Assembly (NCBI GenBank): GCA_011911785.1
Contig: GCA_011911785.1_4084.1
Reading direction: 5' to 3' (one strand)
Source of the DNA: a phage
DNA: 64,000 bases
The notes under the pieces are model-generated. The model worked only from the letters and a program-made list of their open reading frames with translations. It had not been told where the DNA came from and ran no database searches. Made by a program: the position numbers and the translations under genes. This document shows positions 5,246 through 54,000 of the stretch, piece by piece (the first letter of the stretch is position 1; every line of letters starts with the position of its first letter).

Positions 5246-5296
5246 ATCAATAGCACCTCTAAATAATGTATATAAACATTAAAGAGGTGCTTTTTT

Positions 5297-6088
5297 ATGT
5301 CATATGACTATATGGGTGGAAATCCAGATGCCCCAAATTACGATCACCGTGAAAAATTAAAAGATGTGATTACACAAATGTTGGGTGCTGGTGCTGTTGA
5401 AGTTGAAATTACTGATGGACAATTAGAAATCGCAATCGATAATGCGGTATCAAACTACAGAGCATGGAGTTCTGCGTCAAAAGAAGAAGCTTTTTTAAGC
5501 ATGAAATTCTATGATTCTCAATCAGTTTACATGCTACCAACTGAAGTGGAAATTGTTAAGAAAATTTATCGTTATGGTAATGGTTATTTGAGTTCTGGTA
5601 GTGGTAACTCAGTTGATCCATTTTCAATTGCATTTACAAACACATATCTACTAACGTCTGCTCGCAACGCTGGTGGTTATGATTTAACAACCTATGACTT
5701 CAGCTTCCAGTTTCAGGAATTAGTAGGTCGTATGTTTGGACGTGAGATTATTTTCCAGTTTAACCCTATGACTAAGAAACTGGTTATTGACCGTGATATT
5801 CGCGGCACAGAAGAAGTACTGGTTCATGTGTATCATAACATCCCAGAACCACTACTATTCCAACGTCAAATGAGTTATCCGTGGCTTCGTGATTGGGCTT
5901 TATCGGAAGCGATGATTATGTTAGGTCGCAACCGTGCTAAGTTTGCTTCTTTGCCTGGACCACAAGGAACATTTTCAATGGATGGTGATACACTTCGTAA
6001 TGAAGGTATGCAACTCCAGGAACAACTTAAAGAACAGTTGAAGAGATACAAAGATGGTGGTGAACCACTTGGTATGATTATTGGTTAA
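5297..6088 (+). CDS. Neck protein, T4 gp13-like
   Basis: N-terminal KLKDVITQMLGAGAVEVEITDGQLEIAIDNAVSNY and C-terminal WLRDWA...LPGPQGTFSMDGDTL resemble T4 gp13 as recalled from memory. Confidence 0.55.
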   Translation: MSYDYMGGNPDAPNYDHREKLKDVITQMLGAGAVEVEITDGQLEIAIDNAVSNYRAWSSASKEEAFLSMKFYDSQSVYMLPTEVEIVKKIYRYGNGYLSSGSGNSVDPFSIAFTNTYLLTSARNAGGYDLTTYDFSFQFQELVGRMFGREIIFQFNPMTKKLVIDRDIRGTEEVLVHVYHNIPEPLLFQRQMSYPWLRDWALSEAMIMLGRNRAKFASLPGPQGTFSMDGDTLRNEGMQLQEQLKEQLKRYKDGGEPLGMIIG

Positions 6089-6397: not shown

Positions 6398-7024
6398 ATG
6401 GAAAGAAAAATCGTAGCCATCAATGGCTCAATAGGAAGTGGTAAAGATACATACGCTAAAACATTCATCGATAATGGATATACCCGTATGTCGTTTGCAA
6501 AGAACCTGAAAGATTCAGTTGCAGCTATTTTTGGCTGGGACAGAGAAATGCTTGAAGGAACTACTAAAGAAGGTCGTGCTATTCGTGAACAACCGGATCA
6601 GTACTGGTGTAATAAATTAGGACGTGATGATGTTTCACCACGTTGGGTACTGCAAAATTACGGTACTAATGTAGTTCGTCGTTATTTGCATAATGACATT
6701 TGGGTATTCAGTTTAGAACGTTCTATGATGGAAATAGAAGGTAACATTATCATTACTGATTGTCGTTTTCCAAATGAATTGAAAATGATTCGTGAAAATA
6801 ACGGTATCATCATTGAAGTTCAACGTAATTTACCATTCTGGTATGGTCTAGCAGCATCATACAATAAAGGTGATATCCAAATGAAACCAGTTGAACTGGA
6901 ATCAGTACATGAATCTGAATGGGCATGGATTGGTATTAACAACCCACATTATATTATCAAGAATAATGGAACTATAAAAGACCTAGAAAACAAAGCACTG
7001 GATATTATTTATACGAAAAACTGA
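6398..7024 (+). CDS. Deoxynucleoside monophosphate kinase (T4 gene 1-like)
   Basis: P-loop AINGSIGSGKDT; size and layout like T4 dNMP kinase. Confidence 0.6.
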   Translation: MERKIVAINGSIGSGKDTYAKTFIDNGYTRMSFAKNLKDSVAAIFGWDREMLEGTTKEGRAIREQPDQYWCNKLGRDDVSPRWVLQNYGTNVVRRYLHNDIWVFSLERSMMEIEGNIIITDCRFPNELKMIRENNGIIIEVQRNLPFWYGLAASYNKGDIQMKPVELESVHESEWAWIGINNPHYIIKNNGTIKDLENKALDIIYTKN

Positions 7025-7118
7025 TAAAAAATCAATTAGCTCAAGTCAATTAAATCCACCAATAAATAAGACTATACGAAATATATTCGAATAACCAATT
7101 ATTTTTGGAGGATTTAAT

Positions 7119-9782
7119 ATGGCAGGAGAACTCCTATCGCCTGGCGTTTCCATTTCAGTTACTGATGAAAGTATGAGCACTGCTTCCGCACCTGGAACAG
7201 TACCACTATTCATCATTGCTACCGCAGAAGATAAATTAGTACCAGGTAGCAACACAATCGCTGCTGGAACCACAAAAGCAAATGCTGGTAAGTTGCAACT
7301 TCTAACTTCTCAGAAAAGTTCACTAGACACTTACGGCACACCGATTTTTCAATCAAGTAATGGTTCAGTTGTTCAAGGTGACGAACTAAACGAATACGGC
7401 CTACATGCTGCTTATTCTTACCTTGGTATTACTAACCGTGCTTATGTTGTACGTGCAGATATCGACTTAGCACAACTATCACCTTCTGCTACTGCTCCAA
7501 CTGGTCCAGTACCAAACGGTACATTGTGGCTAGATGTTGCTCAATCACAAGTTGAAGCATATGTTTCTAAAGTGGATTCACCAACCAGTTTCTATGACTG
7601 GCAACTAAAACCAGTAACTATTGTTAGTGCTGAAGAAGTTAGTGATGTTAGCCTAGTTGGTATTAACGTTGACGATCTAGTACTACGTTATAAGCCAAGC
7701 AATGGTCAAATGCTAATGTACAAACGTGCAGCATCTGGTCTAGTTCAAGTTGAAACTTACCTTTCACCAATCAACAAAGTACCAGTAGGTAATACAGTTG
7801 AGAAAGGTAATATCTGGATTCGTGATGGTTACACTCAAAATGGTGCTAATTACTTCGGTACTCGTTTTGTTATTAAACGTTATGCATCCCTAACTCAAGT
7901 TTGGAATCAAGTACAAGCATTCACTGGTAACAGTTTCCAAGAAATTGAATCCAAAAGTGGTGTTCTAAATAACAGCTTCATCGCTACTCGTTTTGACTGG
8001 GATAGTAAGAGTTTCTCTTTCTATATTCAAAGTGCAAAATTACCAGCACTAAGTGCTCCAGCGATTCCAGTTGGTGAAACTGTAGTTGTTCAAGCAGACC
8101 AAGATTCTTACTTGACTTTCTCTTATTTGACCAAAACTGTTAAAGTACTAGCAGTTGCACTAGGTGGTGTTATTAACACTCAAACTATTCTTGACAATCT
8201 AAATGCTTCATCTGAACTAATCAATGATGGCTTTAAATTTAAAAGAGAAAGTAATGGTGGCCTAGTAATTAATAGTTCTAAAGGTTATAGTTTCAAAACT
8301 GCACAAAGTGGTAGTGTACTATTTGATGAAGATGAATTTGCAAAACTAACTGTTGATAGTAATAACTATGCTTTGATTAACGTTAACAATTTCCGTGTTG
8401 ATAGTAACGTTCCACGTAGTATCGCTAAAGAAGGTACTCTATGGTATGATTTCAGTAATTCTGATAATCTAAATGTTACCATGTATCTAGCTGATGTTGC
8501 TAATGACAAATGGGTTGAAGTTGACGAAGCTAACAAATATGTGCAAGTTGACGAACCTGCTGCTGACCGTACAATCTGGGTTTCTCCTAAATCACAAGGT
8601 ATTGATGGCTACGATTTCTATCGTAATGTTAATGGTGAGTGGGTTAAACTTGACAGTACTGACCAAAGTACACTAAACGGTATGATCTTCAAGGACTTTA
8701 ACTTCCCTGAACAAGTTCCTGCGGCTGCTCTATACCAAAACGGTATGCTCGCAATCGACCTTGGAAATACTGAAGGTGTGGTTAAGAAAATGATCGATGG
8801 ATTTTGGCATGTTGTCAGTGGTGTTGGTCTTGATGGGAATGGCTTGTTTGGTCGTGCTGCTCAACGCCAATTGGTAGTAGAAGCACTAAATGCAGTTATC
8901 GTTGGAAACGATGATATCCGTTCTGAATTCATTGACTTTAACCTAATTTCTGTTCCTGGTTATGTTGAATGTTTAGATGAGTGTGTGACCCTAAACACCG
9001 ACCGTAAAGAAACTGCTTTCATCGTAACTGATGTTCCAGCACGTTTGAACCCAACTGGTAACGGTAATGCTGTTCAACAATGGGCAACTAACGCAAATAA
9101 CGCACCAAGTAATGGTGATGTTGGTCGTACTACTGCATATGATTATGCTGCTCAATATATGGGCTGGTGCTTAAGTACTAACGTTGATGGTGAAGAAGTT
9201 GCAGTTCCTGGCAGTACTATTGCAATGCGTACCTATGCATACAGCGACAGCGTAAGTTATGTATGGTATCCACCTGCTGGTACTACTCGTGGTGTTGTAA
9301 CAAACGCTGCATCTGTAGGCTTCATCAATGATGAAGGTGAATATCAGCCAGTGGTTTATAACCAAGGTCAACGTGATGTAATGTACACCAACAACATTAA
9401 CCCAATTGCAATGCGTCCAAATCGTGGTTTGCTAGTATATGGTGATAAAACACTATCTCCTAACCAAACTTCCGCATTAAGCCGTGTTAACGTTGCACGT
9501 TTAGTTGTTTATATTCGTCGTCAACTAGAAATTATTTCTGAACCATTCCTATTCCGTTTGAATACTCCAAGTACTCGTCAGGAATTCAGTGGTGTAGTTA
9601 ATAGCTTCCTAGCTGAAATCGTTCAACAACAAGGTCTATATAACTTCGCAGTTGTTTGTGATGAAAGTAACAACACCTCCGAGCGTATTGACCGTAACGA
9701 ACTTTGGATGGATATCGCAATCCAACCTACTAAGTCTATCAACTTCATTTACGTACCGATTCGTATTGAAAAGACTCAATAA
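7119..9782 (+). CDS. Tail sheath protein (gp18-like)
   Basis: N-terminal LLSPGV and C-terminal VVCDESNNTSERIDRNE...IQPTKSINFIYVP match conserved T4 gp18 termini; strong GGAGGA SD. Confidence 0.9.
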   Translation: MAGELLSPGVSISVTDESMSTASAPGTVPLFIIATAEDKLVPGSNTIAAGTTKANAGKLQLLTSQKSSLDTYGTPIFQSSNGSVVQGDELNEYGLHAAYSYLGITNRAYVVRADIDLAQLSPSATAPTGPVPNGTLWLDVAQSQVEAYVSKVDSPTSFYDWQLKPVTIVSAEEVSDVSLVGINVDDLVLRYKPSNGQMLMYKRAASGLVQVETYLSPINKVPVGNTVEKGNIWIRDGYTQNGANYFGTRFVIKRYASLTQVWNQVQAFTGNSFQEIESKSGVLNNSFIATRFDWDSKSFSFYIQSAKLPALSAPAIPVGETVVVQADQDSYLTFSYLTKTVKVLAVALGGVINTQTILDNLNASSELINDGFKFKRESNGGLVINSSKGYSFKTAQSGSVLFDEDEFAKLTVDSNNYALINVNNFRVDSNVPRSIAKEGTLWYDFSNSDNLNVTMYLADVANDKWVEVDEANKYVQVDEPAADRTIWVSPKSQGIDGYDFYRNVNGEWVKLDSTDQSTLNGMIFKDFNFPEQVPAAALYQNGMLAIDLGNTEGVVKKMIDGFWHVVSGVGLDGNGLFGRAAQRQLVVEALNAVIVGNDDIRSEFIDFNLISVPGYVECLDECVTLNTDRKETAFIVTDVPARLNPTGNGNAVQQWATNANNAPSNGDVGRTTAYDYAAQYMGWCLSTNVDGEEVAVPGSTIAMRTYAYSDSVSYVWYPPAGTTRGVVTNAASVGFINDEGEYQPVVYNQGQRDVMYTNNINPIAMRPNRGLLVYGDKTLSPNQTSALSRVNVARLVVYIRRQLEIISEPFLFRLNTPSTRQEFSGVVNSFLAEIVQQQGLYNFAVVCDESNNTSERIDRNELWMDIAIQPTKSINFIYVPIRIEKTQ

Positions 9783-9790
9783 CACACTAA

Positions 9791-9816
9791 GGGAACCATA
9801 TGGTTCCCTTTTTTAT
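9791..9816 (+). terminator. Rho-independent terminator
   Basis: Perfect hairpin gggaacca-ta-tggttccc followed by T-run. Confidence 0.75.
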
Positions 9817-9860
9817 TGTTTAAATTAAATACCATATATTCAGTAAGGTGAGAGGGATAT

Positions 9861-10031
9861 ATGGACGAAATAATTAAAAGTATCCTACAAGAATTGGCCT
9901 TTAATTCAGAATCACAAGAAGAAGCCCAAAATCTTATAGAAGCCTTAATGGAAGTATTAAAAGATGTGGGTATTGTGAGTGATTTTTCTGCTTATACAAA
10001 TGGCAGATGGTCAGTTCGGTGTAAGGTTTAA
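9861..10031 (+). CDS. Small acidic ORF (56 aa), hypothetical
   Basis: ATG at 9861 after GGTGAGAGGGA; below ORF-track length threshold. Confidence 0.3.
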   Translation: MDEIIKSILQELAFNSESQEEAQNLIEALMEVLKDVGIVSDFSAYTNGRWSVRCKV

Positions 10032-10132
10032 GCTATATACTGGTGAATTCCAGTACACATATTGTATTAATATGGATTGGTTCCCTATAGATAAAACATA
10101 TCATTAAGTACTACATAAAGTATGTTAATTTT

Positions 10133-10140
10133 TATAAATA
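10133..10140 (+). promoter_or_regulatory. Candidate T4-type late promoter box TATAAATA
   Basis: Only exact TATAAATA I found upstream of a structural gene, ~38 bp before tube gene ATG 10178. Confidence 0.3.
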
Positions 10141-10177
10141 ATATAAAGATCTCATTTCCTAATAGGAGAATTAATTA

Positions 10178-10861
10178 ATGGCTACTATGCTAGATCGATA
10201 TGGCGTTCCGCTTGCTGGTGGTGGTCGTATTTCAATGAAACAACCAAAAGCAAAATATAAATTCCGTGTAATTTTCTTTGGTTTTGGTGCCAATGATGAT
10301 GGCAACATGATTACACTAGATACAAACACTGTTGGTGCAGTATCTGTATCGCATGAAAACGTAACTGTTCATAGTTATAACAGTTCCGCACACTATAAAG
10401 GCAAATATACTTGGGATGCGATTGAAGTTGCTTTCCGTGATTCAGTTGGTAATGCTTCAGCAAAAGCACTTTACAACCAAATGCGTAAAGAATTCAACTA
10501 CTATAGTCAAGAATCTCGTATGACTGATTCCCAGTTTAAATTTGAAATGTGGATTCAAGAACTAGATGGTTCTAACAGCGAAAATGCAACAAACCTTTTT
10601 GAAGGTACTCTAAGTACTTGGGTTTGTCAGGGTTGCTTTATTGAATCCAGCAACTTTGGTGATTGGGATTATTCTTCAAGCGAAGCACAAGTTATTACTA
10701 TGACTGTTCAACCAGATGGTTGTGCTAAGTTGGGTCCAAACGGTGAAGCATTCGGTGATGAAGTTACTGGTTTCGGTAATCCAAGTACTGCATCTTCTAT
10801 TAGTGGTGCACAAACCAACATTAGTAGTACTACACTACCTGATACAAACTTCTTTGATTAA
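10178..10861 (+). CDS. Tail tube protein (gp19-like), paralog A
   Basis: N-terminus YGVPLAGGGRISMKQPKAKYKFRVIFFGFG and core YTWDAIEVAFRDSVGNASAKAL; position immediately after sheath. Confidence 0.6.
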   Translation: MATMLDRYGVPLAGGGRISMKQPKAKYKFRVIFFGFGANDDGNMITLDTNTVGAVSVSHENVTVHSYNSSAHYKGKYTWDAIEVAFRDSVGNASAKALYNQMRKEFNYYSQESRMTDSQFKFEMWIQELDGSNSENATNLFEGTLSTWVCQGCFIESSNFGDWDYSSSEAQVITMTVQPDGCAKLGPNGEAFGDEVTGFGNPSTASSISGAQTNISSTTLPDTNFFD

Positions 10862-10877
10862 TTAAAGATACTTCTAA

Positions 10878-10907
10878 AGCCTCGAAACTATTTCGGGGCT
10901 TTTTTTA
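10878..10907 (+). terminator. Rho-independent terminator between the tube paralogs
   Basis: Hairpin agcctcgaaa/tttcggggct followed by T6. Confidence 0.6.
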
Positions 10908-10948
10908 TGCTAAATAAAGTATAATACCTTAAATTAAAAGAGGTTGCT

Positions 10949-11725
10949 ATGGCAAAAAACATGATTAGTAAATATGGCGTTCCATTACCATCAGGAAGAA
11001 ATAAAACAATGCTACAACCTAAAGCGAAGTATAAATTTAGAGTTATTGTTTATAATTTCGGTACTGATATCGATGAGCGTGATCACATCGCATTAGATGT
11101 TGATAAAGTTGATAGACCAACAGTAACATTCAGCACTCATAAATTGAACCATTTTACTACCAATACTACATATATTGGTAATCATAACTGGGAACCCATC
11201 ACACTAACAATTCGTGATTCAATTGGCAATGAAAGTGCTAAAGCATTGTCTAGACAGTTACAAAAACAATTAGATTTTCAAAGACGTATTACCTCCAGAA
11301 GTGAACAAGACTATGGTTCGTATAAATTTGGTATGGTTATTCAAATGCTAAATGGACGTAACACAGATGATAGTATTGAAGATTTGGCAAGAAATACTGC
11401 TGTTTCTGCTGCTACCGCTGTGACAAATAATGGTGGGTTAGTTAATGCAGTAGATCAGTTCATTGGTGGCTCAAACTATAACAGTGCTGGTGTAATGGAA
11501 TACTTTGTTCTTACAGGGTGTATCATCACCAATATCAGTTACGATACATTGGAATATAGCTCTAGTGCACCAGTAACTATGGATATTACAATTAAGCCTG
11601 ATAATTGTATTCAATTTGATAATATTGAAGAAATGTATAGTACTCGCATTAATTCATTACTACCAGAAAAAGTTAATCAGGGACTAGATATCATTGACCG
11701 TGTATTCGGTAATATAGGTTTTTAA
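10949..11725 (+). CDS. Tail tube protein paralog B
   Basis: N-terminus YGVPLPSGRNKTMLQPKAKYKFRVIVYNFG and NWEPITLTIRDSIGNESAKAL parallel paralog A. Confidence 0.6.
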   Translation: MAKNMISKYGVPLPSGRNKTMLQPKAKYKFRVIVYNFGTDIDERDHIALDVDKVDRPTVTFSTHKLNHFTTNTTYIGNHNWEPITLTIRDSIGNESAKALSRQLQKQLDFQRRITSRSEQDYGSYKFGMVIQMLNGRNTDDSIEDLARNTAVSAATAVTNNGGLVNAVDQFIGGSNYNSAGVMEYFVLTGCIITNISYDTLEYSSSAPVTMDITIKPDNCIQFDNIEEMYSTRINSLLPEKVNQGLDIIDRVFGNIGF

Positions 11726-11735
11726 GGAGAGTACT

Positions 11736-13849
<2,114 letters not shown>

Positions 13850-45067: not shown

Positions 45068-48000
45068 TTATTGAATATTCAATAGATTTTCGATATCAGT
45101 TCCAGTAATTGACAATCCATTTCTGAATGTATCTAATGGAATTGGTGGATAGAAGTTTTGATATTGAGTAAACTTATCAATGCTCCCCAAGTTCAATCCA
45201 TTAAAGCTATAAGACGTTCCTTTAGTAAAATTATGTTCCGCACTATACATGACACCACGTAATAGACGGTCAGTGTTTCTTACCTGAACCTTCTCATATC
45301 CAACCACAATAATATCATCATTCTGTGCCGCAGCACCTGACAGTACTGAATCAGTAATGATATATGGGCTTATTGAACGAGGTTTAGCAACATAAGTGAT
45401 TGCCTCATCTTCAACGGTTGTAATGTTAATTACACTACATCCTACTTCTTTGATGAACGTGTTATTGACCACAGGTTGTGCATACTGCCACACGCGATCA
45501 TAACTTAGTACTGGTTGAATAACATCAACATCGTATTCAAATACAGTGATTTCAATACCATCAGTCATTTTAGCTCGTACTAGTTCACCCAGGACACCTT
45601 TACCAGAGATTGGCTGATTGTAACCATTATCAATTGTAATACCATCAACTTCAAAAATCTCATTGGAAACTAACCACAAATCAATTTCATCAGGTGTGAT
45701 ACCATCATTGAATTTACCACCATATAATGTTTCGTCATAGAATACTTCATAGTTCAATGCATGTATACTGTAATGACGATTATTTTCATATAGTTTAAGT
45801 CCATTGTCATCAAACTCAGGGTCTTGGAAAGTGCGGATTCTAACTAAGTTCATTGATAATGTATAAAAACGCTCATTACTTTCACGCTTAGTTATACTAT
45901 CAAACATTAACACTACACCATTACTATCAACCAACTCTACGTTACCATTACCCAATACACGTACTGTGTATAGTTTTGGTTTTTTAGAGGATTGGATTTT
46001 ACTAGCACTTAATATAGTTACCCAGTTACCGTCTTGGAATCGTACATAATCTTCACCATCTGGCGTGAAAATCATAACCTTATCACCATCTTTCAAACCT
46101 TCATCGTGAACTTTGATTTCAGTAATTGTTTTAATTTCTGAAATTGGGAAGAAGTATTTTTCAGATTCTTTGAACACATCTTTACCCATATTCTCAATGA
46201 CAATATCATATGATGGAATACTTACAACTGCTTCTGACATATTGTAAGGGTTTTGTACGATCATACCCTCAATCTGGAATCTACTTGTGTCTTTTAATTG
46301 CTCTTGAGCAACTTCATCGAAACCGTAACCATCAACAGTGAAACGTAATTGTGCCATTGTTCTTCCTGATGGGTTTAGTTCAGAAATGTCGATGATATAA
46401 GGATCAATCTCACTATCTTTAACTTCCCATTTAATGGATTTGGTTTGTGATTCCAATGCCAAGTTATCGAATGCATTCATATCATTGAAATATTTTGCAG
46501 TATTGATACTTTCCAGTACTTCAACATATGCAGAATACATTGGATTATTCTGGTCTTGTGGTAAATCATTTAAATCAATTTCAGCCAATACAACTGATTC
46601 TCCGGTTGTTATGAATAAGTCTTCCATGAAATCAGATATGCTGTAACTTTCAGGAATCGGTAGATATTCACCTGCCGCATTCACAACATACACATATTTC
46701 CTTGGCATCATAACAAAAGCATACTTATCAACTGCACGATTACTTAAGATTTCTCTAGCAACATAATAATGATCTAGAATATTCTTATTAAATGTTTGTC
46801 GCATTGCAGATAACACATGAACGGTATCAGAATAATAACGGTCATTTAATGTGGTATCATACTTGTAGCAATAAACACCATATTCTATCTCTAGTATATT
46901 ACGAACTTGGTCTTCATTAGTAAACTCAGGGTGATTTTTCTTGATCATATCGACATATTTTTCATATAGTTCAATACTAATCTCAAAATAACCATAGTTG
47001 TAATCACTACTTGCACTGAACCCAAAAGGTAGGCGAGTATTAGGATTATCATTATAGTTCGTACCCTTAAATGGACAACCAATCTCATTAGAAACCATGT
47101 CATCAGATATATTCTTAAACATTTTCACACGAGTTGCTAATGTATTGTATTGAATATATTTCTTAACGTCTTCTAAAATGTTACTGTTGTTTGTATCAGT
47201 AGTTACCTGCTCCAAATCAGCAGTAAATTGGTCAGTCATTGCAATATCAGTTGAATGGGCTTTATACCATGCATCAATTCCTTTAATGACACCATTACTA
47301 ATATCCAAATCTGAATATTTGGTAGTCATTTCAATACCAATCTGTGAAATTAAGGTATTATTATCATATTCAGGGAATGTATAAACATATCTCTGTAATT
47401 CATAATCATTTCCTATATCCGAAGCATTAGATTGATACTTACTATTGGTTGATTTCAACTCATCAATTGTATAATTACTATCATACGGGTCACATTGAAT
47501 ATTATCATAATGCATAATAACGTCGATTTCTTGGAATCGTCTGTTAGGTGTGATAAAGTCACTTGGTAGTGAACCAATCTTTTCCCAACGTTGGGTTACG
47601 TCATTAAATTGTGCATATTCTAAATCCCAAATGTCTTTTTCAGTCTTAACCCACACACCATCAACTAAAATATAGCCATCTGGGTCAAGGTCATTACTGA
47701 TACCATTAATCAAATCATCATCAGAAGTTTTCTGTTCTATTTGAGAACGGATTTTGGTTCTGTATGGTTTAACTTCTTCGAAGTACTCAACAATTTGATT
47801 AATCAAGTTGTCATTTGAGTAGTTTTGTACGAGAGATTGTTCTAAACCTACAATATAGATATATGAGGTTTTGAATACCCAGTCAACAACACTTTGTTCA
47901 GTGTGTACGTACTTAACCATATCAAAAACAATATTACTTTGATATAAGTTGAATGAATTTTTCAACAACGCTAACGCATTACGAACGTTAACCTCATGAG

Positions 48001-51000
48001 AATTCAAAGAACCATCATCATTGTAAACATTGTACCCAGAATATAACATTGAATTCAATTCAACTGTACTATTCTCACGTCCAATAGCTTTCCAGTATAT
48101 ATTATTACGAGATGCAGTCTTGATGTATAATGTCCAAACACCATCACTATCAGTTACACGGATAATATCACCAATTTGGTAATTTTTAGTGTTTGCGTCA
48201 TCTAAACTAACTTCTTGTGTATATTCAGTGTTGCTATCGTATCCAGTATCGTACCAATCAGCCAGATTCCAGTACTGGGTCATATCCAAAGATGTACCAA
48301 GTGATTCTATGAAGTCAGCTTGTTTAATCATCTTGTGTTGACCTTCACCTCTATTTTCTAGAGTGATTGTAACAGTACTTCCAACTGTACTTGGACTGTT
48401 CATCAATTGAATGTATCCATTTGGATCAATGTGAACAAAATATACTGAACTAGAAGATAATGGTGCTGGCAGAGTTCCGATGGAACTTACAAATACTGCA
48501 TCATTCTCTTTAAAGCGGTTATCTTCTGGTGCAATTACCAATTCATTGTTAAATGATAGAACACGGAATGTAATATCATTTGGGTTCATTTTTAATGTTT
48601 TCACATTAAACACATCATTCATAACAACACTGTTAGTTGTGATGTTCTGTGAACGGTAAAAGTTATTTGCACTCTCAACAAACGCACGACGAGCTTCAAT
48701 GACATTCTGGAACCAAGTTTTATTAGAACCTAAACCAGTTTCAACTTTAGGATAAATTATTTCATTTACAACACCAGTTGAAGTAGTTTCTTGACCAATT
48801 AGTGAGTTCCATAGTGAATTCCAAATATCTGGGTTAAAGTCATAACTATCACCTTCTTTACAGAGTTGATATTGATCATGCTTCAGTACTTCGATATTGT
48901 CATTTCTATATGAAATTGTCAAAATGCTTGTATCATCATTAACTTCAAATTGCATATTACTTAGAATGAAACTATTTTCATTAATAGGTGCAAACCAAGG
49001 AACATTCAATTGTGTTGGATCTTGAATAATACGTGCAATATCAGTACAAGACTTACTACGAGTAGTCATTGGTGGAACATAAATGGTATTACGAACCCAG
49101 AAATAATAACGAACTACATATGTATCAGTGATTGGATCATATTCCATAGATGAACTGTAGTTCTCATCCATTGCAATCCCACTTGGGAGATACATAGTAT
49201 TGTTTTTATTTTTATTGGCTTGTTCTGCACAATATTTTTCCCAGTTGTATGGTTCTACTGGTGAACTAACCCATTCTAGAACATCAATAACACTGTGTGG
49301 TAATAATTTACCCCAATTATAACGCTTATATTCATTAGTTGCTTTTACATCAACGTTACCATCCTCATCAAAGATTGGACGGGTATAATCCAGATAGAAT
49401 GCAGTGCTAGTGTTCCACCACACTTTACCTACCTTTTCAGCACCCCATGCTTGTAATAGTTCACCGTTACTGCTATACTGTGCTGGGTCCACTGGAGAGA
49501 TGAAATCAACATCTTGCATTGCAACCCCAGGAATAACACCGTTAATTGGGTCAAACACATTCAAATACAATGCAGTAATGTTTGTTCTTTCATCATACGT
49601 AGTAGGACGGTCAAACAAAGTGCTTTCAGGTGCACTGTAACTATATTTTTTAGCAATATATTCATCGCGTTCTTGTTGAGTACTAAATCTACTAACATAA
49701 CGATACAAACGTGGTGCTGATTCTACTGTTGAAAAGTCAATAGTAATGGAAGTGTCAAATGGCACTACCATAACTTTTGGATCTAGTCCAGAAGTGTAGT
49801 ATTGGCATTCATCACGTAGGGCATCAGGCATAAAGTTTGTTTCATCAACAAAATAATAATAATCACCATCATTGAGTGGGATATCATCAGACAATAGTAC
49901 TTTACAATATTGCTCAGCATATGGATCTTCACTTTCAATTGGTGTAATAGAAACCATTGTAATACCAGTATCTACTAAATCATACACATTCCATTCGTTA
50001 TTGATATCTTGGAACATCCAAACAGATGTTGGGATTTTACCAGAATTATTCATATAACTAATGCGGTCTTGATTTGCAGTTTCGTAATTTAATGTGGTAT
50101 AATCAATTTCATCTAGGGTTACTGGTCCAATATTAGGTAATTGGATATTCTCACTTCTCCCATTACGCATAGGGAATGAGAATTTACCTTTTGGACGACT
50201 AATCCAGCGTGAATCTTCACCAATTTCACCATAATATACAATTTCATTCTCAGATTCAACCTTATCGGAATAACGGTCAAACGTAATCATTTGTGGTTGT
50301 TGTTTAAACTCATTATTAATTAGTTTAAATTGAAGATTTTTAACACCATCAATGTTACCATAAGAACCAACACGGAATGCCCATTCTTGTAATGCTTTAT
50401 ACTCATCAGTATTATATGATTTAGATACACGTAATACTTTTTCTAGTACTTGGTTAGTGCCTTTATCATGAATAAAACCTTTATAGAAATCAATTCGACC
50501 AGGCTCATTAGTGATCATACGTTGTAAGTAATCACGAGACTGATAGCCAATTAAGTGGTTTGAAAGTTCATTTAATTGAACATCACTAACTGGGGTTTCA
50601 TTATCATAATACTGTTGGAAATTAGACACCAAAGTTTCAAATGATGGTAATGTACCAGCTTCTAGGATGATAAATCCAGGAGCTTGTAAACGTCCAGACC
50701 ATGAACCAGTGATATATCCATACAATTTAATCAATTCTTGAACTGCACCATAGGTTGGTTCATAGATATAATCACCGAAAATCGTCTGATCATCAAAAAT
50801 AACAGCATGTTCATAAGAACTGATACTTAAACGAATAAGTGCCATGCGTTTATTTGATTCTTCAGTTGTTCTTACCGTGAATATGTTACCAATACGAGAT
50901 GTTTCAATCTCAAATTGACGTATACCCTGGTTTGAATCATCTAACAATGACCAAACACCACCACTATTTTGTGCAATTGACTGTACTGAACCAAAATCTG

Positions 51001-54000
51001 TACCAAATTTAGCATTAATTGCTGATGGGGTACAAGAAATGAATTCACCAGTACTCAATTGTTGTTGACTCCAGATTAAAAAGTCTTTTGCAATTGTATT
51101 CCAGTCCTGTTGGATACCAGATTCATCAACTTCTTCAAAAATCCAACCATGTTGCTTGAGATACTCACCATAACCACAAATAAATGTGTAAACTTCCTGG
51201 AAGGTATTCATCAAAGTTCCGTAAGGAATGGATGCATCATTTTTCCACTCATTATAATGAACAACATTACGATTATCAACTTTCAAAGATACTTTATGAC
51301 CGTTTTTAACAGGCAATTTATAATTGAATGTTGCAGAAACTAAATCATAACCATCAATTTGGTAAGCACTACCAGTCCAAGTAATTTTAATTGCACTCAT
51401 TTGCTCATTTCTAATATTATTAGAACGAACTAAACCGATAGATTGGTTTTCTTGTGAAATTAGACCAGTTGCTTCTGATGTAAATGTTAATTGATCAGCT
51501 TTAGTGAATCCACCTAGTTTATGACCCACATTAATATGAGAAGAACGAACAATTTCACCGTACTTAGTTGTAATATTTTTGTTTTGATACATCAAATAAT
51601 CACTAACAATCATTTGATAACCAATAACGCGAGTACTATTCTCACCATGTACGATTGTATCACTATTAAAGTTCAAACGTAAACGAGTATCACCATATAA
51701 AAACTGTGGTTCATTACCAGATACAGTTTTTAATGTATTATTTCGGGTATCCCAGAAATAGTTTGTGAACTGTGCAGGTTTAGCTTTGAATAACATCAAT
51801 AATTCATCATATGCAAACATTGCTGTATTCATATAAGTGAATTCCATATCACCCATATCACCATAAGTCCACGGTTCAGCACGATGATTTAGACTACCAT
51901 ATACAAGACCTAAAACTTCAGGAGCAATGTACTCAATGACACAAATATCAACACCAGATGCTGTCTGCTTGCCTGTTTTAGTGATCTTAAATGGTTGTGT
52001 ACCAAAACGTTTGTACTTGTCATATTGACCTTTACGTGCACCAAACAAGATAGTACCAGTTGAGCTATCACCTTTCTCGTTACCAACGTCCCATAACCCA
52101 CTAGGAACCATGTTACCTTGTTCGTTGATAACTAATGCCTCATATACATAAACAACATCACCATCACGTTCGCCAACTTGAACTGCGGTAGGTTCATATT
52201 CCTGGTTCCACCAAACTGGACGTTGGGAGAAACCAAACATTTCCCACGGATGGGTTGCTGGGCGATATGTACCAAATTGGTCAGTGTAGATTGCTCGCCA
52301 TGAACCACGGGCTGCTATTTGTGTTTGTTGACCATTAACCATGTAATGTGTTCCAGTATAGTTCCAAGTCATCCAGTTATTTGGATCATAATCATGTGAA
52401 CTATTACTGATACCATTGGTTGCGATGAAGTTAATATAACCACGTAGTAGTAAGTTCTTTTTCTCTTCGTCATTATACTCTGTATCTCTGTAATACGGAG
52501 TTGGGAAAAGATCAGAAGCATCTAGCTTAGGTTGGTAATCTTCATCTTTGAAAATAACATCAATACTATTGAAAATTCTATTTTCTAACTCATATATAAC
52601 GTCATCCATTTTATCAACACCGTTTATTACACGGTATGCTTTAGTGATTGCACCTGTATGACTGATGTTATAACAGCTTTGCTTACTACCAGCATTCAAA
52701 AATGTTGCTTTTTCTGGAACGTGTGCTTTCAAAATACCCAAAAACTGTGGAGTTGGTGGTACAAACGCACGAATGAAGCCAGAAGTACTTGCTACGTTAT
52801 CATAATAGAATGGGAAAGTATTATCATGACCCATATTAATAATTGTTAGAATTTCATCAACAATATTAGAAGCATTATTAGCTAAGAAGTTTGCTGGGTT
52901 CTCATTGTACAAACGGATCATTTGTGTATTGAACTTGTTTACGAAACGGAAATATTCGGATTGCATAAACAATACAGATTCAAATAGGTCAATATCTTCA
53001 TTTGCAGAATGTGCCATTAACGGTAGCATTGATGCTTCGTTTTGAATAATCTTAGTACCAACGGAGTTATCCACTAATCCTTTAGACAAACGATCTTCGT
53101 AGTCGTTGAAATCATCAACGGAACCACTGGTGATATTCTTTTGAATGATATCTTTAAAATGTAATGTAAAATTACTTTGGTTGATATAAAGAATATTATC
53201 GTTGTATGGGTTATTTTGTAAGTTGATTGGGATTTCATATGCACCCAACTCTTTATTTGGTACTTCAGTACTGCTGTATGTTCTAATTTGAATCACTGAT
53301 TCATCTTTAAGAGCTACATCTTCACCTAAAGTGATGCTTTGAACCTTGTTATTATATACATGACGTGTATAATCGGTTACATCCACACCATCAACTTGAA
53401 TTTCAATGATTTCAGTACTCTTACCATCAATAATTTTCTGGGCCAATTCAAATGTGCGATTGAAACGTTCACTTTGAATACCTTCACCACTAATTACATG
53501 CCAATCCATATAGGTTTGACGTTCTTCTTTGTAATATTGATAGGTACGATCCACTTCAGTAACATATGCATACATACCTTCTAATGGATTTTTAAAGTTT
53601 TCCATTTCGAATACAGTATTGAATACACGATACATATCAGTGTGTTCTATTTGTGGCGTTTGTTTAACGAATTGCTTTGAATCTTCCTTAGAACGAACCC
53701 AATCGGTCTTAAGGTGTAGTTCATTATCTTTACCAACTACATTATAGTAGTACAATCCAGAAATTTCAGTTTCAACACCCAAATGATCATATGTATAACG
53801 AACACTTTGTAGGAAGTTTTCGTACATATAGTAATTATAATTACCTAGTTCGATATTATAACCATATACTTTATCAGTGCCGTAATTATAGTTGATTTTA
53901 AAACCAAATAGGGATGAACCAACAAAGTTACTTGATGGATAAATTGTAGAATCATTTAATTTAACACCATCACGGTCATATAATTGGAATTGTGGGAATA

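What the first reader, a model, noticed from the sequence alone, without database searches (positions are those of the whole stretch)
10178..11725. Two adjacent tail tube paralogs separated by a terminator
Both proteins start with YGVPL...(M/T)xQPKAKYKFRVI and share the tube-like core, but differ in length (227 vs 258 aa) and a hairpin terminator lies between them. This suggests a major tube protein plus a lower-abundance variant (initiator/terminator ring or alternative tube subunit) controlled by partial termination.
Basis: partly seen in the sequence, partly recalled or inferred. Interest (0 to 1): 0.4.

Follow-up and report, generated by a model that had tools for sequence, protein, structure and literature searches.

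The report
Tail tube gene plus minor paralogues
A giant E. coli phage encodes its main tail-tube protein and then, after a conserved stop signal for transcription, two diverged copies that probably form single adaptor rings at an end of the tube, which is the ordinary layout of contractile phage tails.

Summary
The window is a Rak2-like jumbo coliphage, 99.3% identical to Escherichia phage A4. ORFs 10178-10861 (227 aa, TTP1) and 10949-11725 (258 aa, TTP2) are true paralogues (29% identity, E=3e-37; both phrog_4542). A strong hairpin plus T7 lies between them.

- A third, more distant paralogue, TTP3 (11736-12830, 364 aa), starts 10 nt after TTP2.
- A conserved late-promoter-like motif, GCTAAATA, follows the terminator immediately.

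The terminator is conserved in nine Rak2-like phages with compensatory stem changes.

TTP1 looks like the abundant tube subunit. It is the best conserved of the three, its codon use matches the sheath (CAI rank 8 of 57), and it has the canonical ATAAATA motif. TTP2 and TTP3 have codon use like the portal and baseplate proteins, and they stay adjacent even where TTP1 has been separated from them.

Predicted structures of TTP2 and TTP3 have the contractile-tail tube fold. They match T4 gp19, gp54 and gp3 about equally, so which end of the tube they occupy is unresolved.

Published virion proteomes detect all three proteins.

"Major tube plus minor variant" is supported indirectly. "Controlled by partial termination" is not shown; a separate weaker promoter is at least as likely.

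This is ordinary myophage architecture, and relatives already annotate "tail tube protein (x3)".

The parts
7119..9782 (+). Tail sheath gene (887 aa), with an ATAAATA late-promoter-like motif at 7062-7068
   Evidence: phrog_10581 tail sheath E=0; Pfam Phage_sheath_1C 1.6e-14; motif position
9789..9816 (+). Hairpin plus T-run terminator after the sheath gene
   Evidence: Terminator scan. An equivalent hairpin with different stem sequences follows the sheath gene in 121Q, RaK2, CBB, GAP32 and Munch. It is annotated as a terminator in phage Munch.
10133..10140 (+). TATAAATA / ATAAATA late-promoter-like motif, 44 nt upstream of the TTP1 start codon
   Evidence: ATAAATA lies 42-50 nt upstream of TTP1 in nine Rak2-like phages. 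The CBB paper predicts ATAAATA as the late promoter of structural genes (PMC5259590).
10178..10861 (+). TTP1, 227 aa: the presumed major tail tube subunit
   Evidence: phrog_4542 1.3e-84. 95% identical to the 121Q orthologue, the best conserved of the three. CAI 0.655, rank 8 of 57 in 121Q. Preferred Arg/Gly/Leu codons 34 of 36, like the sheath. Orthologues detected in virions of RaK2, CBB and phAPEC6.
10876..10906 (+). Intrinsic terminator: 12-bp stem, loop CTA, T7
   Evidence: Conserved with compensatory changes in nine phages. Analogous hairpins follow the tube gene in Vibrio phage 2.275.O and PA5oct. Annotated as a terminator in phage Munch.
10909..10916 (+). GCTAAATA: variant late-promoter-like motif, 39 nt upstream of the TTP2 start codon
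   Evidence: Invariant in all nine aligned phages, 39-45 nt from the ATG. The same CTAAATA variant lies 38 nt upstream of the neck gene at 5297.
10949..11725 (+). TTP2, 258 aa: diverged duplicate of TTP1 with a ~32-40 aa helical insertion (about residues 136-180) and an unrelated C-terminal tail
11736..12830 (+). TTP3, 364 aa: distant third tube-fold paralogue with a disordered Gly-rich C-terminal ~90 aa. It starts 10 nt after TTP2, and its stop overlaps the start of the next gene.
   Evidence: phrog_13438 8e-222 plus a weak phrog_4542 hit at 4.5e-7. hhalign 97.1%. AF2 model and Foldseek tube fold, top hit T4 gp3. Detected in CBB and phAPEC6 virions.
12830..13285 (+). T4 gp4-like head completion gene, translationally coupled to TTP3
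   Evidence: phrog_218 7.5e-39; Pfam Tn7_TnsA-like_N 5.4e-16

Best explanation
TTP1 (10178-10861) is the polymerising tail tube subunit. I estimate roughly 150 copies, because the related phage phAPEC6 has 25 hexameric sheath rings.

TTP1 is its own expression unit. A canonical T4-late-type promoter motif (TATAAATA) lies 44 nt upstream, and a strong conserved intrinsic terminator lies 15 nt after its stop codon. The sheath gene upstream is bracketed in the same way.

TTP2 is a diverged duplicate of TTP1. It keeps the N-terminal arm and the beta-sandwich core. It has gained a helical insertion and a different C-terminal tail.

TTP2 is made together with the more distant paralogue TTP3, and with the gp4-like head completion protein, from a separate downstream unit. 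That unit starts at a conserved non-canonical promoter motif (GCTAAATA). Any read-through of the terminator would add to it.

TTP2 and TTP3 are low-copy virion proteins. Each most likely forms one hexameric ring that adapts an end of the TTP1 tube to a non-tube partner. My preferred arrangement is hub - TTP3 - TTP2 - TTP1 tube, by analogy with T4 gp48-gp54-gp19 and Afp7-Afp5-Afp1. There the ring nearest the tube is the most tube-like, and the two adaptor genes are adjacent.

What is shown: paralogy, tube fold, conserved terminator, conserved motifs, codon-bias difference, and presence in virions.

What is inferred: relative abundance, promoter function, ring stoichiometry, and which end of the tube is involved.
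For: Paralogy:
- TTP1 vs TTP2: BLASTP E=3e-37.
- TTP1/2 profile vs TTP3 profile: hhalign 97.1%, E=5.7e-11.
- The HMMs find each other, and no fourth paralogue turns up in about 140 kb.

Fold:
- TTP2 by Foldseek: KP1 tube 1.8e-8, T4 gp3 4.6e-8, T4 gp19 7.5e-8.
- TTP3 by Foldseek: gp3 6.9e-8, gp54 6.6e-7.
- PDB chain identities were checked.

Expression proxies:
- CAI against MCP plus sheath in 121Q: TTP1 0.655 (rank 8 of 57), TTP2 0.538 (rank 35), TTP3 0.511 (rank 41), portal 0.549.
- Preferred Arg/Gly/Leu codons: 34 of 36 in TTP1 against 24 of 46 in TTP2, Fisher p=2e-5. TTP1 does not differ from the sheath, p=0.12.
- Identity to 121Q: TTP1 95%, TTP2 84%, TTP3 89%.

Regulatory signals:
- Terminator covariation and folding energy.
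- 12 of the 14 ATAAATA copies in the window lie 13-64 nt upstream of a same-strand ORF start.
- ATAAATA precedes TTP1 and GCTAAATA precedes TTP2 in all nine phages.
- The late-promoter prediction and the gp55-like sigma factor come from the CBB paper and the 121Q annotation.

TTP2 and TTP3 as one unit:
- The gap between them is 9-11 nt in every phage examined.
- They remain adjacent in Vibrio phage 2.275.O, where two inserted genes separate them from TTP1 and they have their own ATAAATA motifs.
- PA5oct has only the tube gene plus a TTP3-like gene.

Virion MS:
- phAPEC6: gp275c, gp274c and gp273c with 2, 3 and 7 peptides.
- RaK2: gp042 with 5 peptides and gp043 with 3.
- CBB: CBB_205 with 6 peptides and CBB_207 with 9.
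Against: - No quantitative stoichiometry exists. Peptide counts are not proportional to copy number, and in phAPEC6 TTP1 has the fewest peptides (2).
- No transcript mapping exists for any Rak2-like phage, so neither promoter use nor terminator efficiency is known.
- The preferred-codon set was chosen after looking at the sheath. CAI reflects expression only loosely.
- TTP1 itself was not modelled. Its tube fold is inferred from 29% identity to TTP2.
- Both AF2 models have only moderate confidence (mean pLDDT 65 and 62).
- Synteny with T4 and the top Foldseek hit of TTP3 point towards the head-proximal end instead. The T4 order is gene 1 (dNMP kinase), 3 (tube terminator), 2, 4.
- The RaK2 authors proposed other abundant proteins (gp106w/gp107w) as the tube.
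Confidence: 0.62

Rival explanations
1. Head-proximal reading. TTP3 is the functional equivalent of T4 gp3, the tube terminator. TTP2 is an extra adaptor ring between the last TTP1 ring and TTP3. The regulation is the same as in the best explanation; only the end of the tube differs.
For: - The top Foldseek hit of TTP3 is T4 gp3, the tube terminator (9mkb_AC, 6.9e-8).
- Gene order matches T4. In T4 it is 1 (dNMP kinase), 3, 2, 4. In the window it is dNMP kinase, sheath, TTP1, TTP2, TTP3, gp4-like, with a neck-protein gene at 5297 just upstream.
- In PA5oct the only tube-fold gene between the tube gene and the gp4-like gene is the TTP3-like one.
- No gp3 homologue is annotated elsewhere in 121Q or RaK2.
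Against: - The lead of gp3 over gp54 is small: a tenfold difference in E-value with equal TM-scores.
- A two-ring graded series of tube paralogues is documented only at the baseplate end: T4 gp48/gp54, phiKZ gp88/gp182, and Afp7/Afp5 (the last from general knowledge).
- TTP2 and TTP3 are larger than the tube subunit, like gp54 and gp48, whereas gp3 is about the size of gp19.
- The gp15-like gene lies far away, next to the baseplate genes, so neighbourhood is a weak guide.
Confidence: 0.25
2. TTP2 (and TTP3) have no promoter of their own. They are made only from transcripts that read through a leaky terminator, and the leak rate sets the ratio to TTP1.
For: - A terminator lies between the major tube gene and the next gene across the whole clade, including PA5oct.
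- The motif before TTP2 deviates from the consensus at one position (C instead of A) in all nine phages, so it could be weak or non-functional.
Against: - GCTAAATA is invariant across at least six genera, in an intergenic region that otherwise averages 60% column identity. It sits at the same 39-45 nt distance from the ATG as canonical motifs do from other late genes.
- In the Vibrio phage the TTP2-like/TTP3-like pair is 3 kb away from TTP1, behind an opposite-strand gene, and has two canonical ATAAATA motifs.
- The hairpin is strong (12 bp, T7, -14.9 kcal/mol), which does not suggest designed leakiness.
Confidence: 0.15
3. Alternative or co-polymerising tube subunit. TTP2 is built into the tube proper, either as mixed rings or as rings at defined heights. 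This would give the tube local variation, for example to mark the three annular positions where hairy fibres leave the tail in phAPEC6 and CBB.
For: - TTP2 keeps the TTP1 N-terminal arm almost unchanged: 11 of the first 30 alignment columns are invariant across both families.
- It keeps the tube core, and its top Foldseek hits are major tube proteins.
Against: - Codon use and conservation place TTP2 with low-copy proteins.
- A 32-40 aa insertion and a different C-terminal tail would be hard to fit into a uniform helical lattice.
- PA5oct builds a tail without TTP2.
- No contractile tail solved so far has a mixed tube (general knowledge).
Confidence: 0.06
4. The real tube is a different protein: the abundant RaK2 gp106w/gp107w family (121Q_617/618), as the RaK2 authors suggested. 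On this reading, TTP1-3 are all minor tail components.
For: - gp106w and gp107w have the most MS peptides of the small RaK2 virion proteins (13 and 11 peptides, about 55% coverage).
- Their 121Q orthologues have the highest CAI in the set (0.70-0.78).
Against: - They show no similarity to TTP proteins, and have no PDB or Pfam hit.
- PHROGs files them under head and packaging.
- The TTP family has a demonstrated tube fold and sits directly after the sheath gene.
- A capsid of 1620 major capsid protein copies (abstract of PMC7247149) leaves room for far more abundant head decoration proteins.
Confidence: 0.03

Closest known systems
T4 gp19 (tube) with gp54 and gp48 (baseplate tail-tube junction rings)
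   Same: - One abundant tube subunit plus two larger, low-copy tube-fold paralogues.
- The two minor genes are adjacent and tightly coupled. T4 genes 48 and 54 share a stop/start overlap.
- TTP3 and gp48 are both 364 aa, which may be coincidence.
   Different: - There is no detectable sequence similarity (hhalign probability below 1%; no Pfam hit).
- In T4 the initiator genes lie in the baseplate hub cluster, far from gene 19. Here they follow the tube gene directly.
- Here TTP2 is still clearly recognisable at the sequence level as a duplicate of the tube gene.
T4 gp3 tube terminator and the T4 gene order 1-3-2-4
   Same: - The flanking genes match: dNMP kinase upstream and a gp4-like head completion gene downstream.
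   Different: - gp3 is 176 aa and a single gene.
- TTP2 and TTP3 are 258 and 364 aa with extra segments.
- The sheath and tube genes are also inserted in this interval, so the synteny is only partial.
Afp1/Afp5/Afp7 and Pvc1/Pvc5/Pvc7 of extracellular contractile injection systems
   Different: Those are bacterial systems, not phages. Afp7/Pvc7 carries a LysM domain (general knowledge), whereas TTP3 has a Gly-rich disordered tail instead. There is no sequence similarity.
PHROG families 4542 and 13438 ('tail tube protein') in Rak2-like phages: 121Q gp552-554, RaK2 ORF042-044, GAP32_199-201, CBB_205-207
   Same: Direct orthologues (57-96% identity) in the same gene order. Several GenBank records already annotate 'tail tube protein (x3)', and phage Munch annotates the terminator.
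   Different: None in substance. The window's nearest record, phage A4, labels them only 'structural protein'. None of the papers I found and read assigns separate roles to the three.
phiKZ tube gp30 with tube initiator gp88 and spacer gp182
   Same: A jumbo myophage with two hexameric rings between the hub and the tube (PMC13250141).

Membership tests
Contractile-tail tube fold superfamily (T4 gp19 / Hcp / Pvc1) | Two-sheet beta-sandwich tube fold with a long beta-hairpin | tested here: met
   [not shown]
Contractile-tail tube fold superfamily (T4 gp19 / Hcp / Pvc1) | Encoded next to the sheath gene and present in virions | tested here: met
   Gene order. Published MS of RaK2, CBB and phAPEC6 virions.
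Contractile-tail tube fold superfamily (T4 gp19 / Hcp / Pvc1) | Assembles as stacked hexameric rings inside the sheath | not testable with these tools
   Needs cryo-EM or multimer modelling.
Pfam tail-tube families (sequence membership, e.g. the T4 gp19 family) | Pfam HMM hit above the gathering score | tested here: not met
   No Pfam family at E<=0.1 for TTP1, TTP2 or TTP3. hhalign against the T4 gp19 sequence gives probability 0.1%.
PHROG 4542 'tail tube protein' | Full-length HMM match | tested here: met
   TTP1 1.3e-84 and TTP2 3e-78, both full length. TTP3 matches only weakly (4.5e-7) and belongs to phrog_13438.
Tube initiator / baseplate tail-tube junction proteins (T4 gp48, gp54) | Tube fold, larger than the tube subunit, low copy number | tested here: inconclusive
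   Fold and size fit. Low copy number is suggested only by codon bias.
Tube initiator / baseplate tail-tube junction proteins (T4 gp48, gp54) | Location between the hub and the first tube ring | not testable with these tools
   No structure of any Rak2-like tail is available (PDB sequence searches empty; literature search).
Tube initiator / baseplate tail-tube junction proteins (T4 gp48, gp54) | Sequence homology to gp48 or gp54 | tested here: not met
   hhalign of the A2 and A3 profiles against gp48 and gp54 gives probability <=0.1%.
Tube terminator (T4 gp3) | Tube fold capping the head-proximal end of the tube; T4 gene order 1-3-2-4 | tested here: inconclusive
   gp3 is the top Foldseek hit of TTP3 but is not separated from gp54 or gp19. 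Synteny is partial. There is no sequence homology.
Intrinsic (factor-independent) terminator | G+C-rich stem-loop followed directly by a U-tract, on the coding strand after a stop codon | tested here: met
   12-bp stem, T7, 15 nt after the TTP1 stop codon.
Intrinsic (factor-independent) terminator | Structure maintained by selection | tested here: met
   98.6% of cells paired; 6 of 9 pairs with compensatory changes; 0 of 500 shuffles reach the score; slid controls give <=59% paired.
Intrinsic (factor-independent) terminator | Terminates transcription in vivo, and with what efficiency | not testable with these tools
   No RNA-seq exists for Rak2-like phages. The supplementary tables of the PA5oct paper are not held.
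T4-type late promoter (gp55-dependent, TATAAATA) | Motif at the right distance upstream of late genes, and a gp55-like sigma factor in the genome | tested here: met
   - TTP1 has an exact TATAAATA at 10133-10140.
- 12 of the 14 ATAAATA copies lie 13-64 nt upstream of ORF starts.
- A late sigma factor is annotated in 121Q and CBB.
- TTP2 has only the variant GCTAAATA.
T4-type late promoter (gp55-dependent, TATAAATA) | Mapped transcription start | not testable with these tools
   Needs 5'-RACE or dRNA-seq.

The most novel reading that the evidence does not exclude
TTP2 is not an end ring. It is a second tube subunit placed at defined heights in the tube, or mixed into rings. This would create local landmarks that position the three rings of 'hairy' fibres seen along the tails of phAPEC6 and CBB. 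That would be a heterogeneous tail tube, which has not been seen in any contractile system.
Probability: 0.05. Interest if true: 0.65.

Novelty: new member of a known kind. Interest (0 to 1): 0.2.

Why it matters
The main value is for annotation. The nearest record, phage A4, calls all three genes 'structural protein'. The original RaK2 paper could not identify the tube and guessed a different protein.

The evidence here identifies TTP1 as the tube subunit and TTP2/TTP3 as minor tube-fold ring proteins. It also defines the expression units: promoter, gene and terminator for the sheath; the same for the tube; then a weaker multi-gene unit.

TTP2 is still alignable with its parent tube gene at 29% identity. 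That makes it a clear example of a tube adaptor ring arising by tandem duplication of the tube gene. In T4 the same relationship is visible only at the fold level. PA5oct, which lacks TTP2, and the Vibrio phage, whose copy is less diverged, bracket that event.

None of this changes what is known about how contractile tails are built.

Tried and rejected
- **Pfam.** No hit for any of the three proteins.
- **PDB by sequence.** No hit for any of the three proteins.
- **TATAAATA enrichment.** The 8-mer is not enriched in the window (2 copies against 8.2 expected). I therefore dropped simple enrichment as an argument. I used the position of the 7-mer ATAAATA relative to ORF starts instead.
- **hhalign against T4 proteins.** The TTP profiles against single T4 sequences (gp19, gp3, gp2, gp48, gp54, gp4) gave nothing.
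- **PA5oct data.** The RNA-seq and MS supplementary tables are not held.
- **Recent Asteriusvirus papers.** fEgEco12 and Sharanji contain nothing on these genes.
- **Literature search.** No cryo-EM work on a Rak2-like tail was found.
- **A fourth paralogue.** HMM searches of about 140 kb of A4 and 121Q sequence found none.
- **The RaK2 authors' tube candidates.** The gp106w/gp107w family showed no similarity to TTPs or to solved structures.
- **The second 887-aa ORF at 59623-62286.** I considered whether it was a sheath paralogue. It is the gp5-like hub/lysozyme.
- **TTP1 structure.** It could not be modelled, because both structure-prediction jobs went to TTP2 and TTP3.
Full report
**Identity of the window**

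Megablast of 7000-13000 gives 99.3% identity over the full length to Escherichia phage A4 (ON286972, genus Asteriusvirus). It gives 81-83% identity to 121Q, PBECO4, phAPEC6 and other Rak2-like jumbo coliphages. In A4 the genes in question are annotated only as 'structural protein'. In several relatives they are annotated as 'tail tube protein (x3)'.

**The observation**

The ORFs are as described:

| Coordinates | Product | Length |
|---|---|---|
| 7119-9782 | tail sheath | 887 aa |
| 10178-10861 | TTP1 | 227 aa |
| 10949-11725 | TTP2 | 258 aa |

They align at 29% identity, E=3e-37. Both match phrog_4542 'tail tube protein' over their full length.

Between them lies a 12-bp hairpin (10876-10902) followed by seven T. 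It was the best terminator-like site in the surrounding 8 kb. Its centroid energy is -14.9 kcal/mol, z=-4.56 against shuffles.

- The next ORF, 11736-12830 (TTP3, 364 aa, phrog_13438 'tail tube protein'), is a third and more distant paralogue. It has a weak hit to phrog_4542 at 4.5e-7. The profile-profile comparison gives 97.1% probability, E=5.7e-11, over 206 columns, including the shared PK-K--F motif. The HMMs also detect each other.
- Immediately after the T-run comes a conserved GCTAAATA motif.

**Regulatory anatomy**

I extracted the same intergenic regions from 121Q, RaK2, CBB, GAP32, Munch, pEa_SNUABM_12, Hallingskeid and XbC2.

In all of them, TTP1 is followed by a GC-rich hairpin plus T6-7 whose stem sequence differs between lineages. 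On the nine-sequence alignment, 98.6% of stem cells pair and 6 of 9 pairs show compensatory double changes. None of 500 column shuffles reaches the covariation score, and sliding the partner by one column drops pairing to 56-59%. An analogous hairpin follows the tube gene in Vibrio phage 2.275.O and in PA5oct. The Munch GenBank record already annotates this terminator. The sheath gene has its own conserved terminator at 9789-9810.

The CBB paper predicted ATAAATA as the late promoter of structural genes in CBB and GAP32. It resembles the T4 TATAAATA motif, and a gp55-like sigma factor is present (PMC5259590). A late sigma factor is also annotated in 121Q.

In the window, the 8-mer TATAAATA is not enriched. 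However, 12 of the 14 copies of ATAAATA lie 13-64 nt upstream of a same-strand ORF start. I estimate that only about 2-3% of positions qualify, so this placement is far from random.

TTP1 has the motif 42-50 nt upstream of its ATG in all nine phages; in the window it is an exact TATAAATA at 10133-10140. TTP2 always has GCTAAATA 39-45 nt upstream. That is the same one-base deviation in every lineage, in an intergenic region that otherwise averages 60% column identity.

TTP2 and TTP3 are 9-11 nt apart everywhere. The TTP3 stop overlaps the start of the gp4-like head completion gene. No plus-strand terminator is predicted between 11725 and 14500.

In the Vibrio phage, two inserted genes separate TTP1 from a TTP2-like/TTP3-like pair. 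The pair remains adjacent and has two canonical ATAAATA motifs of its own.

The simplest reading is three late expression units:
- the sheath gene alone;
- TTP1 alone;
- TTP2, TTP3, the gp4-like gene and those that follow.

Read-through may add to the third unit, but it does not need to be the control point.

**Which protein is abundant?**

No quantitative data exist, so I used proxies.

| Measure | TTP1 | TTP2 | TTP3 | Comparators |
|---|---|---|---|---|
| Identity, A4 window vs 121Q | 95% | 84% | 89% | sheath 89% |
| CAI in 121Q (rank of 57 genes) | 0.655 (8) | 0.538 (35) | 0.511 (41) | scaffold 0.648, portal 0.549, gp6-like 0.539 |
| Sheath-preferred Arg/Gly/Leu codons | 34 of 36 | 24 of 46 | 38 of 65 | sheath 134 of 161 |

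TTP1 stays the most conserved of the three out to RaK2, CBB and Munch. The CAI reference was MCP plus sheath. For the preferred codons, TTP1 differs from TTP2 (Fisher p=2e-5) but not from the sheath (p=0.12). I chose the preferred set after looking at the sheath, so this test is indicative only.

phAPEC6 has 25 hexameric sheath rings. That implies about 150 tube subunits.

**Are all three in virions?**

| Phage | TTP1 orthologue | TTP2 orthologue | TTP3 orthologue | Calls |
|---|---|---|---|---|
| phAPEC6 | gp275c, 2 peptides | gp274c, 3 peptides | gp273c, 7 peptides | 14, 49; mapping 17 |
| RaK2 (Table S3) | gp042, 5 peptides | gp043, 3 peptides | not listed | 54 |
| CBB | CBB_205, 6 peptides | not listed | CBB_207, 9 peptides | 39 |

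Each protein has therefore been seen in at least two virion proteomes. Peptide counts do not give stoichiometry.

**Fold and role**

AF2 models were built from alignments of database homologues. Confidence is moderate: TTP2 has mean pLDDT 65 with a well-predicted core, and TTP3 has 62 with a disordered C-terminal 90 residues.

Both models have the contractile-tail tube fold.

- TTP2, Foldseek: KP1 tube 1.8e-8, A-1(L) tube, PVC tube, T4 gp3 4.6e-8, T4 gp19 7.5e-8, KP1 gp54-like 4.1e-8.
- TTP3, Foldseek: T4 gp3 6.9e-8, gp54 6.6e-7.

Chain identities were confirmed by sequence search. The scores are too close to assign a tube, initiator or terminator role. There is no sequence-level similarity to any T4 protein and no Pfam hit.

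Family alignments show three things:
- TTP2 keeps the TTP1 N-terminal arm (11 of the first 30 columns invariant across both families) and the core.
- TTP2 has a family-wide insertion of about 32-40 residues, predicted helical.
- TTP2 has an unrelated C-terminal tail.

hhalign places the 'NNG' part of this insertion opposite a segment of TTP3.

PA5oct has a tube gene and a TTP3-like gene but no TTP2. So TTP2 arose by duplication of the tube gene within the Rak2-like/Vibrio branch, and TTP3 is the older paralogue.

**Mechanism proposed**

TTP1 polymerises as the tube. TTP2 and TTP3 each form one ring adapting a tube end.

I prefer the baseplate end, in the order hub - TTP3 - TTP2 - TTP1, for four reasons:
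- A graded two-ring series, with the ring next to the tube being the most tube-like, is known at that end. Examples are T4 gp48/gp54, phiKZ gp88/gp182 and Afp7/Afp5 (general knowledge).
- The two adaptor genes are adjacent and coupled, as T4 genes 48 and 54 are.
- Both are larger than the tube subunit.
- No other initiator candidate is annotated or detectable.

The main rival places them at the head-proximal end. TTP3's best fold match is gp3. The flanking genes (dNMP kinase upstream, gp4-like downstream, a neck gene nearby) also recall the T4 order 1-3-2-4. I cannot separate these two readings with the tools available.

**Other rivals**

- *Pure read-through control* is disfavoured by the invariant motif and by the Vibrio arrangement.
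- *A co-polymerising second tube subunit* is disfavoured by codon bias, by the insertion, and by the absence of TTP2 from PA5oct.
- *The RaK2 authors' candidates* (gp106w/gp107w, corresponding to 121Q_617/618) are abundant and have the highest CAI. But they show no similarity to tube proteins, and PHROGs files them under head proteins. They are more likely capsid or fibre components.

**Novelty and verdict**

The three genes are already called tail tube proteins in several public records through PHROG-based annotation, and the terminator is annotated in one. A tube gene plus tube-fold adaptor paralogues is the rule in contractile tails.

This analysis adds:
- the assignment of TTP1 as the major subunit on several indirect grounds;
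- the recognition of three rather than two paralogues;
- the conserved terminator-plus-variant-promoter architecture;
- the dating of TTP2 as a recent tandem duplicate of the tube gene.

It is a sound but ordinary finding.

Noticed in passing
window 9861-10107: A ~290-nt insert between the sheath terminator and the TTP1 promoter occurs only in Asteriusvirus; RaK2, CBB, GAP32 and Munch have 105-121 nt there. It holds a small ORF whose conserved C-terminal part (Y-YC-N--WFP-D) is in a different frame from the N-terminal part. The break is at different places in A4 and 121Q. It looks like a decaying small gene.
   Followed up: partly
window 12830-13285: The T4 gp4-like head completion protein matches Pfam Tn7_TnsA-like_N (endonuclease fold) at 5.4e-16. 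Its start codon overlaps the TTP3 stop codon.
   Followed up: no
window 5259-5265: The same CTAAATA variant of the late-promoter-like motif lies 38 nt upstream of the neck/adaptor gene at 5297-6088. It may therefore mark a class of weaker late promoters for low-copy tail and neck proteins.
   Followed up: no
window 6398-13285: The gene order dNMP kinase, sheath, TTP1, TTP2, TTP3, gp4-like resembles the T4 order 1-3-2-4, as if the sheath and tube genes had been placed inside it.
   Followed up: partly
window 45068-55075 (- strand): A 3335-aa ORF, annotated only as 'virion structural protein' in 121Q, lies next to the gp6-like baseplate wedge gene. Its function was not examined.
   Followed up: no
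window 59623-62286 (- strand): A second ORF of exactly 887 aa, the same length as the sheath. It is the gp5-like baseplate hub/lysozyme, so the equal length is coincidence.
   Followed up: yes
L011:27063-28366 (121Q_617/618, outside the window): Another adjacent pair of paralogues (phrog_9326, 35% identity over part of their length) has the highest codon adaptation of all 57 genes scored. These correspond to the RaK2 gp106w/gp107w proteins that the RaK2 paper guessed to be the tube. They show no similarity to tube proteins.
   Followed up: partly
L008:4775-7657 (Vibrio phage 2.275.O): A pectin-lyase-fold gene and an opposite-strand gene are inserted between the tube gene and the TTP2-like gene. 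The Vibrio TTP2-like protein (196 aa) lacks the insertion and is closer to its own tube protein (38%) than to enterobacterial TTP2 (30%).
   Followed up: partly
Salicola phage SCTP-2, MF360958: 367586-368779: Two adjacent tube-family genes (447 and 448), plus a third match elsewhere in the record. Tandem tube paralogues therefore recur in other jumbo phages.
   Followed up: no
proteins P0074-P0120: A large set of ~209-aa marine metagenome proteins (TARA, JGI; contigs up to 327 kb) is 32-34% identical to TTP2. They are presumably tube proteins of uncultured marine jumbo phages.
   Followed up: no
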